NCBI GenBank assembly: GCA_946494015.1
Contig: CAMMBL010000003.1
Span: 1-55,631 of the forward strand
Direction: 5' to 3'
DNA: 55,631 nucleotides
DNA from: an uncultured Mycoplasmatota bacterium
GTDB taxonomy: Bacteria; Bacillota_I; Bacilli_A; RF39; UBA660
The translations under genes were made by a program, and so were the position numbers. The notes beneath the pieces are model-generated. The model ran no database searches. It was not told the origin of the DNA and worked only from the letters and a program-made list of their open reading frames with translations. This document shows, in pieces, positions 10,777 to 16,901 of this stretch (the stretch's first letter is position 1; every line of letters begins with the position of its first letter).

Positions 10777-11253
10777 TTAATTACTAGGAATTTTTAATAT
10801 TTGACCAACAGACAATAAATTAGTTGTTAAATTATTCAAAGATTTAATTGCATCTACTGTTGTATTAAATCTATTAGCTATACTCCATAAACTATCTCCA
10901 CTTTTAACCGTATAATTAACAGGAGTTATATTATTAGAAGATGGTATAAGTAAAACTTGACCTATAGAAAGTAAATTAGATGTTAAACTATTGGCATCTT
11001 TTAAAGCTGCAACTGTAACTCCAAATTGATTGGCAATACTCCATAGACTATCTCCAGACTTTACAGTATAAGTATTTGTAGTTATATTATCATTATCATT
11101 ATTATTATCTTCTTCTAAATCATCACTAGCACTAATACCAGGAATAATCAAAGACTGTCCTATGCTTAAAGTATCACTAATTAAGTCATTTGCATCCCTT
11201 ATTTCTTGAACTGTAATTCCAAATTTCCTAGCTATACTCCAAAGGTTATCTCC
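10777..11253 (-). pseudogene. 3' fragment of the interrupted amidase-LysM gene (rest of LysM4, LysM5, LysM6)
   Basis: The open frame extends 34 codons upstream of the tracked 11151 start as GDNLWSIARKFGITVQEIRDANDLISDTLSIGQSLIIP, beginning exactly at the attachment core. It is in frame with the 5' fragment. Confidence 0.93.
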
Positions 11254-11269
11254 AGATACATTTTTTATG
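11247..11269. repeat. Left attachment junction (core TATCTCC plus arm AGATACATTTTTTATG)
   Basis: Read directly; the arm is the 15/16 reverse complement of the arm at 15369-15384. Confidence 0.92.
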
Positions 11270-12830
11270 TAACATTTTTAAATGTAAATATAATATCTAT
11301 CGTTTTGTCCTGATAGATATAAATTTTTTCAACCAAATTTATTATCAATTCTCTAGTTGGATTTTCTAATGATAAAAATTCATTAATATATTTTTCTATC
11401 ATTTTATTATCTATTTTATTGGATTCACTATTTTCATTTTTAAGATTATCAATACTTGATTTATTATTTTCTATTTCATGCTTTAGATTTTCACTAACTC
11501 TTATATATTGTTCTTCATCAATAATACCCTTTAACATATTCATATAATTTTTATCCAAAGTTTCAGTTAAGTTATTATTTGCAAATTCTAAACTTTCTAT
11601 TTGCTTTTTTATTTTTAAAGTATTATCTATAGGGCTTATATTACCAATAGATTCTTTTACCTTATTTCTATCTAAATACTTTTTGCAAACTCCTTTTATA
11701 TTATCTAAAATAATCCTTTCTAGATTTTCATAATTGTTTGTATGAGTTGTGCAAACATGATATTTAGAATATGTTCTGTAATAATCACAAGTGGTATAAC
11801 TTCTACCTGTTTTATTTTGGTATCTAATTGTTATTCTGTGTTTACAATCTCCACAATATAAAAGCCCATCTAATAAATAAAATCTTTTTTTATCAGGTCT
11901 TTTAACATTTTTAGGTAGTAAAGTTTGTACATAATTAAATTTATCTCTATCAATAATTGCCTCATGGGTATTCTCAACTATAATATAGTCATTGGGGTTA
12001 TTTTTAACCGTCTTTTTAAGTTTATAATTAATCTTTTTAGTTTTACCTTGAACTGTATCTCCTACATATATCTGATTAGTAAGTATTGCTTTTACAGTAG
12101 TATCAACCCATATACCATATTCTTGGCTTATACAATTTGTATTTATGCACTTTGTATTCCATACATAATTATAATAAGATGCTGGAGTTTTAATTTTTCT
12201 TTCTGTAAGATATTGTGCTATATAATGGTAGGTATTACCTTTTAGTGCTAAATCAAATATCAATTTAACAGTATCTGCTTGTTCAACATTCACTACTAAA
12301 TGATTTTTATTTGTTGGATCTTTTATATAACCAAAAGGACATCTACCAGATACATATAATCCTTCTTTCATTCTAGAATGTAAACTTGTTTTAACTTTTT
12401 TAGAAATATCTTTAGCATACATATCATTCATTATTGCTTTAAAAGGTGCTATGTCATTATTAGTATTATCTATAAATGTGTCTATACCATCATTAATAGC
12501 AATATACCTAACATTTTTATTTGGAAAATACTTTTCTATTAATTCACCTGTACCAATATAATCTCTACCTAATCTAGACATGTCTTTGGTAATAATCATA
12601 TTGATTTTACCAAGTTCAATATCTTTCATCATTTTTTTGAATGCTGGTCTATCAAAATTAGTTCCTGAAAATCCATCATCAACATATTCATCTACTACTA
12701 TGTAATTATTTTCTTTAACATATTGTTTTAGTAAACTTCTTTGACTAATAACACTATCAGATTCTATTTTTCCATCATCTCTTGATAATCTTATATATAA
12801 TCCTACTTTAAAACTACTATTCCCAATCAT
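11265..12830 (-). CDS. Large serine recombinase (resolvase, recombinase and zinc-ribbon domains; SpoIVCA/TnpX-like)
   Basis: YIRLS catalytic Ser, YVDDGFSGTNFDRPAF, KDMSRLGRD, PFGY, HEAIID, CGDC...C...C zinc ribbon, 521 aa. Confidence 0.96.
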   Translation of the reverse strand: MIGNSSFKVGLYIRLSRDDGKIESDSVISQRSLLKQYVKENNYIVVDEYVDDGFSGTNFDRPAFKKMMKDIELGKINMIITKDMSRLGRDYIGTGELIEKYFPNKNVRYIAINDGIDTFIDNTNNDIAPFKAIMNDMYAKDISKKVKTSLHSRMKEGLYVSGRCPFGYIKDPTNKNHLVVNVEQADTVKLIFDLALKGNTYHYIAQYLTERKIKTPASYYNYVWNTKCINTNCISQEYGIWVDTTVKAILTNQIYVGDTVQGKTKKINYKLKKTVKNNPNDYIIVENTHEAIIDRDKFNYVQTLLPKNVKRPDKKRFYLLDGLLYCGDCKHRITIRYQNKTGRSYTTCDYYRTYSKYHVCTTHTNNYENLERIILDNIKGVCKKYLDRNKVKESIGNISPIDNTLKIKKQIESLEFANNNLTETLDKNYMNMLKGIIDEEQYIRVSENLKHEIENNKSSIDNLKNENSESNKIDNKMIEKYINEFLSLENPTRELIINLVEKIYIYQDKTIDIIFTFKNVT

Positions 12831-13009
12831 TAATTATTTCTCCTTTCCTTTTGGGAATAATGAGTATGATTGAATGGTAGCTCTAAATTTAAAATATTAC
12901 AAGTCTTATTAATCTTTTTTTGTAATTCAATTTTTAATACTTCAGTTATTGTTTCGTTTAAAGATTTTCCATTTTCTTTAAACTTTAAATTAACTTTGTA
13001 TTCAACCAT
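12830..13009 (-). CDS. 59-aa basic protein coupled to the recombinase (candidate recombination directionality factor)
   Basis: ATG at 13009 after GGAGG; stop overlaps the recombinase start; the ORF track gives a 65-aa version. Function is inferred from position only. Confidence 0.6.
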   Translation of the reverse strand: MVEYKVNLKFKENGKSLNETITEVLKIELQKKINKTCNILNLELPFNHTHYSQKERRNN

Positions 13010-13109
13010 AGAGTTTATTACCTCCATTTAAACCTATGGCATTAACTTTAATTTTAGTAATATTATTTGGTATGCATATTACATACTCAAAAATATTACT
13101 TAACTTCAT
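13002..13109 (-). CDS. Unannotated 35-aa ORF (MKLSNIFEYVICIPNNITKIKVNAIGLNGGNKLYG)
   Basis: GGAGG RBS; overlaps both neighbouring small ORFs. Confidence 0.35.
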   Translation of the reverse strand: MKLSNIFEYVICIPNNITKIKVNAIGLNGGNKLYG

Positions 13110-13140
13110 ATTCCTCCATTATATTTTTCATAAACATCAT
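13096..13140 (-). CDS. Unannotated 14-aa leader ORF (MMFMKNIMEEYEVK)
   Basis: AAGGAG RBS immediately downstream of a sigma-A-like promoter. Confidence 0.3.
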   Translation of the reverse strand: MMFMKNIMEEYEVK

Positions 13141-13154
13141 CTCCTTTTGCATGG

Positions 13155-13183
13155 ATGATACCTCTTTAAAATATAGGAGTCAA
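13155..13183 (-). promoter_or_regulatory. Sigma-A-like promoter for the small ORFs and recombinase
   Basis: TTGACT-17 nt-TATCAT on the minus strand. Confidence 0.65.
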
Positions 13184-13250
13184 GTTATATTTTTATTGTT
13201 AATTTTTTATATTATCCTAAAATTCAAAAAAATTAATTAATTACTGATTA

Positions 13251-13340
13251 GCAGGATAAGAAGTAGGCGCCTTGATCCTTATTTTTCTTTATAAAATAAG
13301 TAAAATAGTAGGTGCCATTCTTATTTTGCACTTGCAAAAT
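13251..13340 (-). other. Candidate origin of transfer (MOBP/RP4-like nic motif with repeats)
   Basis: Minus strand GCCTACTTC-T-TATCCTGC versus RP4 oriT GCCTACTTC-ACC-TATCCTG^C (recalled); flanked by two AGTAGGYGCC...CTTATTTT direct repeats and short inverted repeats. Confidence 0.5.
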
Positions 13341-13456
13341 TCATCCTATTTTATAGGTTTATATTAAGGTTAAATATAAACAATATAAAATTTTAAGACA
13401 ATAAAAAATCATCCTTTTTTCCAATTTTTATTAAAAATAGTAGGATGATTAAATTT

Positions 13457-14182
13457 TTATTTTTGTTTAATGGTTTTTAATTTTTCATCATAATAATTAA
13501 ACATCTTCTGAATTATATTATCACCAAATTCATTAATCGTTGAAAAATCTGACATTAAATTTTTAAATTGCTCAATACTTAATATTTCTGATAAATATCT
13601 TATAGATAGATAACTTAAATCATAGCCATTATAGTTATCATTAATGAAAGAATTTCCATGTTTTAAATTATTCATTTGAGGTATTACTTTGGTTTGCTCC
13701 CTTACCCTTAAATAAAAATCATTAAAAACACCTGAATCGTTCAGTGAATCTTTTTCTCCTGACATAAATTGTGCCATTCCTTCATCGTACCAAACTATCC
13801 TTTTTGAATAATCATTGTGCAATATATATTTCATATATAAAATATGAAATAATTCATGGCTAGCAGTATACAATCTTTTTAACTGGAATTTAGGATTCAC
13901 ACACGCATTAACCATTTCATTATCATAAGTCCCTGTAGCATATTCGGGTAACGAATCTCTTTCACCTCTTAAAGAATATATAAATTCTCTAAATTCTTCT
14001 ACATTATCAAAATAATTAACAACTATTGGTTCATCACTAGAAATACTAAAAAATAATTTATATTCTTCTATCTTTTTATTAAGTAAGGAAACAGTTGCTT
14101 GTGCTAAATTTTCTAGGCTCTCTGAATAATTTATTTCACACAAGTTTGTTTTTAAACTTTTTCTCATTTTCATCACCACCAC
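13457..14182 (-). CDS. Gluzincin-type zinc metallopeptidase (MA clan-like), no signal peptide evident
   Basis: SHELFH (HExxH) followed by WYDEGMAQF (third-ligand EG.A motif) and C-terminal Y..SYL.I.YL helix. Confidence 0.72.
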   Translation of the reverse strand: MVVMKMRKSLKTNLCEINYSESLENLAQATVSLLNKKIEEYKLFFSISSDEPIVVNYFDNVEEFREFIYSLRGERDSLPEYATGTYDNEMVNACVNPKFQLKRLYTASHELFHILYMKYILHNDYSKRIVWYDEGMAQFMSGEKDSLNDSGVFNDFYLRVREQTKVIPQMNNLKHGNSFINDNYNGYDLSYLSIRYLSEILSIEQFKNLMSDFSTINEFGDNIIQKMFNYYDEKLKTIKQK

Positions 14183-14184
14183 AA

Positions 14185-15264
14185 TTAACTTTCTAAATCT
14201 TTTTCAGATAAATTTAACATATTCCTAGCTCTCAATAAGAGTTGCTGATAAGTAAGAATATGTATATTGTGATAAGAAGAATTCAATATTCTTAAATATT
14301 TTTTTTCTTCATCACTTAATTCATTCTTAGTACCAATTAATATAATACCTCTTGGTCTTGCTATGACACAATCATTATCATCTTGATAACTATTATTTGA
14401 AGTCATTTTTTCTAATTCAAAAATATAATTTTGAGTTTGTGCAATTGCTTTTGTTAATTCACTAGATGAATAATAATTTTTATGATTCGTATCATAATGA
14501 AATAACTCCGCAGTTGGTAATTTAACTTCTATTATATCAATAAAATCCTCTAAATTTTTAGGAATACCATCTAATATATTTTTAGAATTAATTTTTTCTT
14601 CTTTTACAAAAGTACAATATTCACTCCCAAAAAGCCACAAATTTTTCTTTAAAAATTTTTGTATAAAAACTTCATTTTTAAATTTACCATTAATTATTTT
14701 TTCTAGATCTAAAATTGCTTGTTCTTTCATTTTAATATTTACTAATTTATAATAATCATCTATGCTATCAATATTATTTTCTATTAATTTAAGAAAATCA
14801 TTTTTTGAAATAGCTTTATTATAATTGTTATTAGAAGTTTGAATTTTATATGACAAATCATTATTACATAATTTTATTTCATCTAAAAATTGTTTTAAAA
14901 CGCTTATTGCGTGAGGGTTTAATGTTACTTCTTGTTCATTGTAGATATTGCCTTTAGATGTTCTTCTACATATATGTAAACCAGAAGTTTTATTACCTTC
15001 TTCTGTCTCAACAAGCCAACACCAATATTTCTGTTGTCCTGTTGGTGATTCGAATAATTTTATCTTTTCTGAAATTTTAAATTCAAGAGATTGCTGTCCA
15101 ATCTCATATTGTTCTTCTGTATATGTATTTCCGCAATCTGATATTGCCTCAGCCATTCTATAATTATCTCCATCCTCTTTATTTATTTTTTTACCTATGT
15201 ATATTTTTCCATCTTTTTTATTATCATCAAAATTCGGATTAAAATTATTCAAGCAAATCACCAC
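14185..15264 (-). CDS. Shedu (SduA/DUF4263)-like anti-phage nuclease
   Basis: E.FIQKFLKKNLWLFG.EY, D...D.IEVK.P (PD-(D/E)xK), ELTKAIAQ..NY, PRGIILIG, I.ILTY..LL.RA: the DUF4263 core, preceded by an unrecognised N-terminal domain. Confidence 0.75.
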   Translation of the reverse strand: MVICLNNFNPNFDDNKKDGKIYIGKKINKEDGDNYRMAEAISDCGNTYTEEQYEIGQQSLEFKISEKIKLFESPTGQQKYWCWLVETEEGNKTSGLHICRRTSKGNIYNEQEVTLNPHAISVLKQFLDEIKLCNNDLSYKIQTSNNNYNKAISKNDFLKLIENNIDSIDDYYKLVNIKMKEQAILDLEKIINGKFKNEVFIQKFLKKNLWLFGSEYCTFVKEEKINSKNILDGIPKNLEDFIDIIEVKLPTAELFHYDTNHKNYYSSSELTKAIAQTQNYIFELEKMTSNNSYQDDNDCVIARPRGIILIGTKNELSDEEKKYLRILNSSYHNIHILTYQQLLLRARNMLNLSEKDLES

Positions 15265-15298
15265 CCAAAGTTTTTAGTTATCTATAATTATATCATAT

Positions 15299-15327
15299 AA
15301 AAAGGCACTTTTCTTAAAAAAGCCCTT
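15299..15327 (-). terminator. Intrinsic terminator supplied by the element downstream of the truncated amidase
   Basis: Minus strand AAGGGCTTTT-ttaag-AAAAGTGCC-TTTTT hairpin plus U-tract, 27 nt after the new stop codon. Confidence 0.55.
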
Positions 15328-15353
15328 AAGATTCCTTGTGATTTTAAATATTT

Positions 15354-16538
15354 CTACTCATTATTCCCCATAAAAATTGTATCTCCTTTTTCTACTGTGT
15401 AATAAAAGACAGCACCATTATTATCTCCTTGATTATTATTTTCACCACTAACACCAGGAATAGTTAGAACTTGGCCTACACTAAGAGTATCAGTTACAAG
15501 ATTATTAGCATCTCTTATTTGTTGAACTGTAACTCCAAATTGATTAGCAATCTTCCATAAACTATCTCCTTTTACTACCGTATAAGTAGTAGAGGGCTGT
15601 GTTTGATTATTATCTTCATTGTCATTACCTGCACCAGGAATTATTAAAACTTGGCCGATACTAAGGACATCACTTGTCAAATTATTAGCTCTCCTTAAAT
15701 CATTAACACTAATACCATAACGACTTGCTATACTCCATAAACTATCTCCCTTTTGAACAGTATAAGTAGTAGATCCACCTATATTATTATCATTATTTCC
15801 ATTATTACCAGGTATTCTTAAAACTTGTCCTACACTAAGAAGATCAGTTGTTAAATTATTAGCATCTCTTAACTCTTGTACAGTAACTCCAAAGCGATTA
15901 GCAATACTCCAAAGACTATCTCCTTTTTTTACTGTATAAAAATTAGTACCACTTCCTTCTGGTGGAGTATAAGGAACTCCAGCATATTCAGCAATTGCTC
16001 TAACTACTGCTTCTACATAATTTAATAAATCATTTTGTAACTTAACTCTATCATTAGCATTATCAATAAAACCATACTCTACAAGTAATGATTGCATAGG
16101 AGAAGTTTCTCTAATAATATAATAATAATCTTTTGAAGGATCTTCTGGTAATCTTCTTTGATAATATTTACGCATAATTTGTCCTTCAGAACCAATTTCT
16201 TCTAAAATATTTTGAGCTAAAGTAGAAGAATTACGCAAAGCATAAATAACTTCAGCACCTTCTCCTCCTCCAGCATTTATATGATTAGAAATAAGTATAG
16301 CATCCCTACTTCCACCAAAAGCCTCATTAGCACGTCTAAGCCGTTCTTCTCTACTCAAATTTTCATCAAAATCTCTTGTTAAAACTGCTGGTATACCTAG
16401 TTCTTGTAATCTTTCATACATATATAAAGAAGCATCTAATGTAAAATTTTTCTCTTGCAAGCCACCACTAACAGCTCCAGGATCAGAACCTCCATGTCCC
16501 GCATCTACAACAACACCTGTTACTCTACGCTCATTCAT
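15354..16538 (-). CDS. N-acetylmuramoyl-L-alanine amidase (Amidase_3) with 3 LysM repeats; 5' part of the interrupted gene
   Basis: VVVDAGHGGSDPGA, EKNFTL, ISNHINAGGGEGAE, LLVEYGF; three complete LysM repeats, then YTVEKGD breaking into the element-derived tail TIFMGNNE. Start at ATG 16538 after GAGGTG. Confidence 0.93.
   Translation of the reverse strand: MNERRVTGVVVDAGHGGSDPGAVSGGLQEKNFTLDASLYMYERLQELGIPAVLTRDFDENLSREERLRRANEAFGGSRDAILISNHINAGGGEGAEVIYALRNSSTLAQNILEEIGSEGQIMRKYYQRRLPEDPSKDYYYIIRETSPMQSLLVEYGFIDNANDRVKLQNDLLNYVEAVVRAIAEYAGVPYTPPEGSGTNFYTVKKGDSLWSIANRFGVTVQELRDANNLTTDLLSVGQVLRIPGNNGNNDNNIGGSTTYTVQKGDSLWSIASRYGISVNDLRRANNLTSDVLSIGQVLIIPGAGNDNEDNNQTQPSTTYTVVKGDSLWKIANQFGVTVQQIRDANNLVTDTLSVGQVLTIPGVSGENNNQGDNNGAVFYYTVEKGDTIFMGNNE
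15369..15386. repeat. Right attachment junction (arm CATAAAAATTGTATCT plus CC; core TATCTCC 15380-15386)
   Basis: Read directly. Confidence 0.92.
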
Positions 16539-16901
16539 AATATTCACCTCTACATTAAAATATGTAAAAAGGCCTATTTTGCTACTATTATAAGCATTAA
16601 GCTTAATAAAACTAACTATATTTTAAAAAATAAAAGATTTTCTAATGATGAAATATTATAAAACCAAAATAAAATATTAACAACAACAAAACATAACTTA
16701 AAAAAATTTGATAGAGGTGTATTTTCTAAAATGGAAAACAATACCAATGCTAAATTAAATACACTAGTAAAAAACTTACAGGCAAAAAAAATAACCTTTT
16801 GCTTTTTAGCAATACGGCTATTTTTATATAACAAATTACTTAATAACTTTTTATAGTTTTTGATATTAAATTCAATAAACTTATAATTCTTTCTTATTAA
16901 T

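What the first reader, a model, noticed from the sequence alone, without database searches (positions are those of the whole stretch)
13457..15264. Shedu-like nuclease translationally coupled to a gluzincin metallopeptidase as the element's only cargo
Seen: a 359-aa protein with the DUF4263 core (IEVK, ELTKAIAQ..NY, PRGIILIG) and an unfamiliar N-terminal domain of about 190 aa. It is followed after 2 nt by a 241-aa HELFH...EGMA peptidase without an obvious signal peptide, under an extended -10 promoter (TGaTATAAT near 15285-15295). Known: Shedu normally acts as a single-gene anti-phage nuclease whose variable N-terminal domain is the sensor; HExxH proteases act in defence (Lit) and in activation by cleavage (IrrE/ImmA). 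Inference: a possible two-component, protease-regulated Shedu, or two independent defence genes that pay for the element's maintenance.
Basis: partly seen in the sequence, partly recalled or inferred. Interest (0 to 1): 0.78.

Follow-up and report, generated by a model that had tools for sequence, protein, structure and literature searches.

The report
Shedu nuclease plus unrelated peptidase cargo
A small mobile island in a chicken-gut bacterium carries a genuine Shedu anti-phage nuclease followed by a zinc peptidase, but in related islands the two genes occur without each other, so they are separate modules and not a protease-controlled Shedu system.

Summary
The minus-strand ORF at 14185-15264 is a bona fide Shedu nuclease (PF14082 E 1e-19; PADLOC SduA E 2e-40; fold matches B. 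cereus Shedu). The ORF at 13457-14182 is an intact stand-alone gluzincin (invariant HExxH plus E; M1/M9-like catalytic fold, pLDDT 92). Both lie in a roughly 4.1-kb serine-recombinase island that splits an amidase-LysM gene.

The favoured reading, a two-component protease-regulated Shedu, is not supported.
- None of 58 species-level genome loci with the peptidase has a Shedu beside it.
- None of 12 genome loci, and none of four metagenomic close homologs of this Shedu, has the peptidase beside it.
- The pair recurs only in near-identical copies.

In sister islands the invariant TGnTATAAT promoter drives Pycsar, a RhuM trio, Shedu, or nothing, followed by the peptidase. One island keeps Shedu but has a DpnII R-M system where the peptidase would be. 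Shedu copies 92% identical sit beside peptidases only 76% identical.

Shedu therefore occupies a swappable cargo slot. The peptidase is a frequent, independent and dispensable module of unknown substrate. The result is ordinary for Shedu. The uncharacterised peptidase family remains a moderately interesting defence-associated candidate.

The parts
11252..15386 (-). Mobile island of about 4.1 kb (serine-recombinase element) that holds the Shedu-peptidase operon
   Evidence: The amidase-LysM reading frame is broken at GGAGATAC/GGAGATAA. A metagenome contig (run X4, record 15) matches exactly 11252-15386, with different flanks on both sides.
15287..15295 (-). Extended -10 promoter TGATATAAT in the island's conserved left end
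   Evidence: Read. TGnTATAAT is invariant in seven islands with different cargo, including the empty-slot island. The generic promoter scan is not informative in this AT-rich DNA.
14185..15264 (-). Shedu nuclease SduA (longest ORF 359 aa; probable start TTG 15252, 355 aa). It fills the island's variable cargo slot.
   Evidence: PF14082 E 1.3e-19. PADLOC SduA E 1.8e-40. D231, D242, E245 and K247 are invariant in 34 homologs. The ExK motif aligns with solved SduA 8ps4. Top Foldseek hits are B. cereus Shedu 8ti9/8ti8, E 4e-8. DNA homology to sister islands stops at 15279 and resumes at 14178.
13457..14182 (-). Stand-alone gluzincin metallopeptidase (longest ORF 241 aa; conserved start ATG 14167, 236 aa)
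   Evidence: Sub-threshold hits to Peptidase_M9 (25.0 bits against a cutoff of 26) and Peptidase_MA_2. Invariant H108, E109, H112, E133, H174, Y183 and Y186. AF2 pLDDT 91.7. Foldseek matches M1 aminopeptidase and M9 collagenase catalytic domains, probability 1.0, TMq 0.5-0.6. The start codon and ribosome-binding site are conserved across cargo types.
13400..13461 (-). Terminator-like hairpin with U-tract directly after the peptidase stop; probable end of the operon
   Evidence: RNA fold -14.3 kcal/mol, z -4.0 against shuffles, followed by UUUUUUAU.
12830..13027 (-). 65-aa ORF overlapping the recombinase start (island backbone; possibly an excision factor)
   Evidence: Conserved at 72-98% identity directly before the recombinase in sister islands. 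No family hit.
11265..12830 (-). Large serine recombinase of the island
   Evidence: Resolvase + Recombinase + Zn_ribbon_recom domains. phrog_95 integrase E 1e-103.
15354..16547 (-). 5' part of the interrupted N-acetylmuramoyl-L-alanine amidase-LysM gene
   Evidence: Amidase_3 plus three LysM domains. The frame ends 8 codons inside the island.
10777..11256 (-). 3' part of the same gene (rest of the 4th LysM repeat plus two more LysM repeats)
   Evidence: LysM E 4e-37. The frame continues upstream to about 11256.

Best explanation
The two genes form one operon: promoter, Shedu, peptidase, terminator. The operon sits inside a roughly 4.1-kb serine-recombinase island inserted in a LysM repeat of an amidase gene. 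The genes are independent modules, not a dedicated pair.

Shedu occupies a swappable cargo slot between the island's conserved promoter and the peptidase gene. It most likely works as characterised Shedu proteins do. It would form a homotetrameric PD-(D/E)xK nuclease, held in check by and targeted through its own N-terminal domain, which attacks invading (for example free-ended) DNA without a partner protein. That mechanism is inferred from the family.

The peptidase is a cytoplasmic, catalytically intact, minimal gluzincin that is expressed whichever cargo lies upstream. It is common in these islands but dispensable. Its substrate is unknown. My preferred guess is a second, self-contained function on a phage or host protein (a defence or abortive-infection type protease). 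A general cytoplasmic peptidase role is about as likely.
For: - **Shedu identity and completeness:**
- **Peptidase without Shedu:** none of 58 species-level loci has a Shedu beside the peptidase. Its upstream neighbours are a UPF0158+SWIM+RhuM/PDC-S05 trio (13 loci), YhcG/PDC-S02 after comEC (8), ComEC (3), NUDIX (3), the amidase itself (3), rpoBC (3), KsgA, GyrA, UDG, HIT and Bax1-I. Pycsar PycC+PycTM is the neighbour in L001-L004.
- **Shedu without the peptidase:** 0 of 12 genome loci sharing the same N-domain. The same holds for P0130 (82% identical, same island type, followed by a DpnII R-M system), P0134, P0140 and P0128.
- **Slot boundaries:** DNA homology between islands covers 15401-15279 and 14178-11214 and excludes exactly the Shedu ORF. 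The promoter is invariant. The peptidase keeps its own ribosome-binding site and start in all contexts.
- **Empty slot:** in L029 the promoter sits directly before the peptidase.
- **Peptidase replaced:** in L009 homology resumes at 13460, so the R-M genes sit where the peptidase would be.
- **No co-evolution:** Shedu of the window and of L005 are 92% identical, yet their peptidases are 76% identical and are not sisters in the tree.
- **Literature:** Shedu is a single-gene system often found with R-M systems, transposons and prophages (10.1101/2023.08.10.552793). It senses DNA ends through its N-terminal domains (10.1101/2023.08.10.552762).
Against: - The genes are only 2-17 nt apart, co-oriented, with no terminator between them, so they are almost certainly co-expressed. 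A functional interaction in this particular island cannot be excluded by genomics alone.
- Removing the N-terminal domain activates B. cereus Shedu, so activation by proteolysis is mechanistically conceivable.
- The peptidase repeatedly sits immediately 3' of different defence-type genes. That could mean it serves them all.
- No experiment, transcript data or co-fold was available.
Confidence: 0.8

Rival explanations
1. Dedicated two-component system. The peptidase activates or regulates this Shedu by cleaving off or processing its inhibitory N-terminal domain on infection.
For: Tight spacing and a shared promoter and terminator. [quoted passage not shown] Two-gene Shedu variants exist, such as KELShedu.
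Against: Adjacency is 0 of 58 from the peptidase side and 0 of 12 plus 4 from the Shedu side outside near-identical copies. The same Shedu subtype, N-domain included, occurs alone in many contexts. The peptidase occurs with unrelated cargo or none. Sequence identities are discordant, 92% against 76%. The known two-gene Shedu partner is an upstream DNA-binding protein, not a peptidase.
Confidence: 0.05
2. Generic accessory. The peptidase is a shared helper for whatever defence cargo sits upstream (Shedu, Pycsar, RhuM trio, YhcG, NUDIX). It might degrade phage anti-defence proteins, or act as a common infection-triggered switch, as CapP-type peptidases do for CBASS operons.
For: It is the fixed last gene behind at least five unrelated defence-type cargos, usually with a gap of 20 nt or less. 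The catalytic residues are under strong conservation. One relative is fused to an XRE-type HTH domain (P0251), an architecture reminiscent of peptidase-repressor modules (the comparison is from my own knowledge).
Against: It also stands alone behind the promoter (L029). It lies next to housekeeping genes such as rpoBC, ksgA, gyrA, and between comEC and holA. It is replaced by an R-M system in L009 with Shedu retained. The island has no HTH repressor partner. There is no match to M78/ImmA-type families.
Confidence: 0.1
3. The peptidase is an ordinary lineage-specific cytoplasmic peptidase with a housekeeping or nutritional role. It was captured by the island, is merely co-transcribed, and has nothing to do with phage defence.
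For: More distant family members lie in housekeeping neighbourhoods and in one copy per genome region. Island-borne copies form one clade nested among chromosomal ones. There are no PADLOC or PHROG hits. The fold resembles M1 aminopeptidase and M9 catalytic domains.
Against: The family is small and patchy, 339 clusters among 1.84 billion representatives, which is unlike a core enzyme. One MAG carries both an island-borne and a chromosomal paralog (L012 and L069). It is strongly associated with mobile islands and defence-type neighbours.
Confidence: 0.3

Closest known systems
Shedu (SduA), Type 1: B. cereus B4264 SduA (PDB 8TI8/8TI9) and E. coli SduA (PDB 8PS4)
   Same: C-terminal DUF4263 PD-(D/E)xK nuclease domain with a conserved D...ExK motif. 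An N-terminal regulatory domain is joined by a helical linker. It is a single-gene system located on a mobile element, and a close relative is adjacent to an R-M system, as reported for the family.
   Different: Only 16-19% identical to the solved proteins. The N-terminal domain belongs to a sequence family without a Pfam model. Its predicted beta-sheet-plus-helix shape could not be assigned to a solved N-domain, because the Foldseek hits cover only the nuclease part.
KELShedu two-component system (KELA + KELB), 10.1101/2025.09.13.674623
   Same: A DUF4263 nuclease encoded next to a second gene in one operon.
   Different: There the partner is a dsDNA-binding protein that forms a complex with the nuclease. 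Here the neighbour is a downstream zinc peptidase that does not co-occur with Shedu outside near-identical copies.
Gluzincin catalytic domains of clan MA(E): M9 collagenase peptidase domain, M1 aminopeptidases, Pfam Peptidase_MA_2
   Same: HExxH with a third zinc ligand Glu about 20 residues downstream (WYDEGMA). Thermolysin-like alpha/beta catalytic fold.
   Different: It is only about 236 aa, with no activator, collagen-binding or other accessory domains and no signal peptide. Its scores fall below the gathering thresholds of both Pfam families. The family is narrow.
Defence-related metallopeptidases: Lit (peptidase U49), ImmA/IrrE/CapP (M78)
   Same: A cytoplasmic HExxH zinc peptidase encoded on a mobile element beside defence genes. 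A Lit-like or switch-like role is a possible function (resemblance recalled from my own knowledge).
   Different: No sequence match to these families in Pfam, NCBIfam or PADLOC. The island has no cognate HTH repressor gene.
Variable defence hotspots in small mobile elements (P4-like satellites, integron cassettes); comparison from my own knowledge
   Same: A conserved backbone (integrase or recombinase, promoter) flanks a slot in which unrelated defence systems replace one another.
   Different: The backbone here is a roughly 3-kb large-serine-recombinase unit that targets a LysM-repeat coding sequence. The slot lies between a conserved extended -10 promoter and the peptidase gene.

Membership tests
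Shedu (SduA) | DUF4263 / SduA_C nuclease domain | tested here: met
   PF14082 scores 71.4 bits against a cutoff of 27, over profile positions 3-159 of 159. PADLOC SduA E 1.8e-40. Foldseek finds B. cereus Shedu at E 4e-8 with TMt 0.72.
Shedu (SduA) | Intact PD-(D/E)xK catalytic residues | tested here: met
   D231, D242, E245 and K247 are invariant in 34 homologs. DIIEVKLP aligns with DIIEVKKP of solved SduA 8ps4.
Shedu (SduA) | Acts as a single gene (no obligatory partner) | tested here: met
   Full-length relatives at 37-85% identity stand in unrelated neighbourhoods without the peptidase. This is genomic evidence only.
Shedu (SduA) | Homotetramer; anti-phage activity that depends on the nuclease | not testable with these tools
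   Needs protein biochemistry and a phage challenge.
   0 of 58 peptidase loci and 0 of 12 Shedu loci show the pair. It is seen only in L005-L008 and the window.
   Shedu is 92% identical but the peptidase 76% identical between the window and L005. The two peptidases fall in different subclades.
Gluzincin metallopeptidase (clan MA(E)) | HExxH motif plus a downstream Glu as third zinc ligand | tested here: met
   H108, E109, H112 and E133 are invariant in 30 homologs down to 34% identity.
Gluzincin metallopeptidase (clan MA(E)) | Thermolysin-like catalytic fold | tested here: met
   AF2 pLDDT 91.7. Foldseek probability 1.0 to ERAP1/IRAP (M1) and to ColH and Vibrio collagenase (M9) catalytic domains, TMq 0.5-0.6.
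Peptidase family M9 (collagenase) | Score above the Pfam gathering threshold; collagenase activator and accessory domains | tested here: not met
   25.0 bits against a cutoff of 26, covering only profile positions 158-264 of 289. The protein is 236 aa with no extra domains. The flagellinolysin model scores 27.6 against a cutoff of 205.
ImmA/IrrE/CapP (M78) or Lit (U49) defence peptidases | Sequence membership of the family; for M78, a cognate HTH repressor partner | tested here: not met
   These families do not appear among the Pfam, NCBIfam or PADLOC hits at E <= 0.01. No HTH protein is encoded in the island.

The most novel reading that the evidence does not exclude
The roughly 236-aa gluzincin may define a new defence-associated protease family. 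It could be a self-contained abortive-infection or anti-phage protease. Alternatively it could be a cargo-independent helper expressed as the fixed last gene behind interchangeable defence systems (Shedu, Pycsar, RhuM trio, YhcG, NUDIX) in LysM-targeting serine-recombinase mini-islands.
Probability: 0.25. Interest if true: 0.7.

Novelty: new member of a known kind. Interest (0 to 1): 0.35.

Why it matters
The result removes an attractive but unsupported idea, a protease-gated Shedu. It shows instead a clean natural example of modular defence cargo: the same promoter and recombinase backbone carries Shedu, Pycsar, a RhuM trio, Shedu plus R-M, or nothing.

For Shedu biology it adds one more single-gene Type-1 member, from uncultured low-GC gut Bacilli. 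The only open item of wider interest is the small, uncharacterised, catalytically intact gluzincin family that rides in these islands. If it turned out to be a defence gene or a general helper, it would be a new component.

Tried and rejected
- **Close-relative scan for Shedu in species-level genomes** found nothing. It was repeated with an alignment and gave 12 loci.
- **PHROGs and NCBIfam** gave nothing useful for Shedu or the peptidase. PADLOC gave nothing for the peptidase.
- **Sequence search of the PDB with the peptidase** gave only marginal collagenase hits, E 0.26.
- **Generic promoter scan** was not above the shuffled expectation in this AT-rich DNA. The promoter call rests on conservation instead.
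- **Hairpin upstream of the promoter** (15296-15345) is not more stable than shuffles, z -0.08, although its sequence is conserved.
- **A comEC-linked copy of the peptidase** was sought in the window and not found.
- **RNA runs:** none were found, so co-transcription is inferred, not shown.
- **Cell-wall role for the peptidase**, compensating for the split amidase: considered and rejected, because it has no signal peptide and occurs in genomes without the island.
- **ImmA-like excision switch:** considered and rejected, because there is no family match, no repressor gene, and the island L009 lacks the peptidase.
- **Literature search** for LysM-targeting serine-recombinase defence islands found nothing relevant.

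Full report
**1. What is at the locus**

All the relevant genes lie on the minus strand. In order they are:
- an Amidase_3 plus 3 LysM ORF (16547-15354)
- a 359-aa ORF (15264-14185)
- a 241-aa ORF (14182-13457)
- small ORFs, including a 65-aa ORF (13027-12830)
- a 521-aa large serine recombinase (12830-11265)
- a LysM-only ORF (11151-10777)

The amidase frame breaks inside a LysM repeat at GGAGATAC. It resumes after GGAGATAA near 11256. The stretch of about 11252-15386 is therefore an inserted island. A chicken-gut metagenome contig (run X4) carries exactly 11252-15386 between different flanks. This shows that the island is a discrete, recently mobile unit.

Related islands come from MAGs labelled uncultured Bacilli, Tenericutes, 'Mycoplasma sp. 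CAG:472' or Erysipelotrichaceae. The window's own sequence is present in at least 19 public runs, mostly chicken gut.

**2. Shedu**

The 359-aa ORF is a genuine Shedu.
- It matches PF14082 SduA_C at E 1.3e-19 over nearly the whole profile.
- It matches 16 PADLOC SduA models, the best at E 1.8e-40.
- In an alignment of 34 homologs, D231, D242, E245 and K247 are invariant.
- DIIEVKLP aligns with the ExK motif of solved E. coli SduA 8ps4.
- The AF2 model has mean pLDDT 74. It shows a beta-rich N-terminal domain (strands 19-100) plus a helix (116-129), then linker helices, then the nuclease. Its best PDB matches are B. cereus Shedu 8ti9 and 8ti8, at E 4e-8 and TMt 0.72.

The N-terminal half is conserved along its full length in more than 100 homologs down to 43% identity. 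It is therefore a widespread Shedu subtype rather than something unusual. I could not assign its fold to a solved N-domain.

Homologs and the called gene P0122 (355 aa) begin at the TTG at 15252, behind a GGGTGGTG ribosome-binding site.

**3. The peptidase**

The second ORF gives only sub-threshold hits: Peptidase_M9 at 25.0 bits against a cutoff of 26, Peptidase_MA_2, and flagellinolysin.

H108, E109, H112 (the HExxH motif), E133 (in WYDEGMA), H174, Y183 and Y186 are invariant in 30 homologs down to 34% identity. The AF2 model is confident, with pLDDT 91.7. It matches the catalytic domains of M1 aminopeptidases and M9 collagenases with probability 1.0 and TMq 0.5-0.6. The protein is thus a minimal, intact gluzincin with no signal peptide.

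The family is small. It has 339 clusters at 50% identity with E <= 1e-3 among 1.84 billion representatives. Most members are 230-260 aa. Rare members carry fusions to GNAT, an XRE-type HTH, or an FGase-like domain.

Alignment of the junction across cargo types shows that the conserved start is ATG 14167 (MRK...), with a GGTGAT ribosome-binding site. That is 17 nt after the Shedu stop, not 2 nt.

**4. Is the pair a system?**

From the peptidase side, 58 species-level genome loci encode a homolog at 33-80% identity. None has a Shedu next to it. The gene immediately upstream is:

| Upstream neighbour | Loci |
|---|---|
| RhuM/PDC-S05 protein, preceded by UPF0158 and SWIM proteins | 13 |
| YhcG-type PDDEXK/PDC-S02 protein, after comEC | 8 |
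| ComEC itself | 3 |
| NUDIX protein, after GNAT/ASCH/deaminase genes | 3 |
| The amidase-LysM gene itself | 3 |
| rpoBC | 3 |
| KsgA, GyrA, UDG, HIT, Bax1-I and others | 1 each |

In metagenome contigs the same island backbone carries Pycsar (PycC + PycTM) before the peptidase.

From the Shedu side, 12 genome loci hold full-length relatives at 37-70% identity. None has the peptidase. Closer metagenomic homologs behave the same way:
- P0130 (82% identical) sits in the same island type but is followed by a DpnII R-M system.
- P0134 (81%), P0140 (68%, next to a Fic gene) and P0128 (85%) also lack the peptidase.

The pair is seen only in the window and in L005-L008, where Shedu is 92% identical.

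**5. Anatomy of the slot**

DNA comparison of islands shows two conserved blocks. One is 15401-15279, which holds attL, the added stop codon, a hairpin sequence and the promoter. The other is 14178-11214, which runs from the peptidase to attR. The non-homologous gap between them is exactly the Shedu ORF.

The extended -10 TGnTATAAT is invariant in seven islands with different cargo. Two islands mark the extremes:
- In L029 the promoter stands directly before the peptidase, so the slot is empty.
- In L009 homology resumes at 13460, so an R-M system takes the place of the peptidase while Shedu stays.

A hairpin with a U-tract follows the peptidase stop (-14.3 kcal/mol, z -4.0). No terminator lies between the two genes.

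In a maximum-likelihood tree, island- and LysM-linked peptidases form one clade (support 98/92). Its sister is a comEC-linked clade. The window's peptidase is not sister to that of L005-L008, even though both follow nearly the same Shedu. Cargo and peptidase therefore reassort.

**6. Mechanism**

Shown here:
- gene identities and intact catalytic motifs
- the operon layout
- independent assortment of the two genes

Inferred from the family:
- Shedu acts alone as a tetrameric nuclease whose N-terminal domains sense invading DNA (10.1101/2023.08.10.552762; 10.1101/2023.08.10.552793).
- The literature already reports Shedu as single-gene and frequently associated with R-M systems, transposable elements and prophages. 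That matches what is seen here.

Deleting the N-terminal domain activates B. cereus Shedu. The known two-gene Shedu, KELShedu, uses a DNA-binding partner.

The peptidase's role remains open. My odds are:
- a separate defence or abortive-infection type protease, or a generic helper: about 0.25-0.35 together
- an ordinary cytoplasmic peptidase captured by the island: about 0.3
- a Shedu-specific regulator: about 0.05

**7. Verdict**

The headline interpretation is not supported, while the fallback of two independent genes is. Shedu here is a new member of a known kind. The modular island and the uncharacterised peptidase family are the more interesting by-products.

Noticed in passing
L001:2568-4235, L005:1-919, L017:1861-3516, L022:2910-4517: Sister loci hold a second, distant serine recombinase (34-38% identical) just upstream of another amidase/LysM fragment. 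It is accompanied by other cargo: MutH and HTH_36 in L001, and Bro-N, TIR and DUF6414 in L005 and L002. Islands therefore seem to stack in tandem in the repeated LysM-coding sequence, building a defence island.
   Followed up: partly
window 14292-14299 (A8 run in the Shedu 3' part): Contigs from two metagenome runs (X4, X8) have one A fewer at 14299. That would frameshift Shedu about 38 codons before its stop and remove conserved C-terminal residues. It is either a real inactivated or phase-variable allele, or a homopolymer assembly error.
   Followed up: no
L039:2868-9862: In the comEC-linked relatives, the ORF after the peptidase combines a ComEC C-terminal fragment with a YhcG-like part. 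This suggests that a YhcG+peptidase island integrates into the 3' end of comEC and duplicates the target end.
   Followed up: no
L009:3465-4181: A metallo-beta-lactamase-fold gene with a hit to the Anti-Pycsar Apyc1 family lies about 2 kb upstream of the interrupted amidase gene, in a genome whose relatives carry Pycsar in the same island slot.
   Followed up: no
P0251, P0242, P0243 (protein representatives): Rare members of the peptidase family are fused to an XRE-type HTH domain, a GNAT acetyltransferase, or an FGase-like domain. The HTH fusion recalls peptidase-repressor switches. These may instead be gene-calling fusions.
   Followed up: partly
L012 and L069 (same MAG, CALVJW01): One genome holds two paralogs of the peptidase. 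One is island-borne (79% identical to the window's copy). The other is chromosomal and divergent (47%), and lies next to a UDG-family gene.
   Followed up: no
L066-L068:7926-8711: The most distant peptidase relatives (33-35% identical) carry an N-terminal hydrophobic helix and sit between rpoBC and an AMP-binding enzyme gene. These are membrane-anchored versions in a housekeeping context.
   Followed up: no
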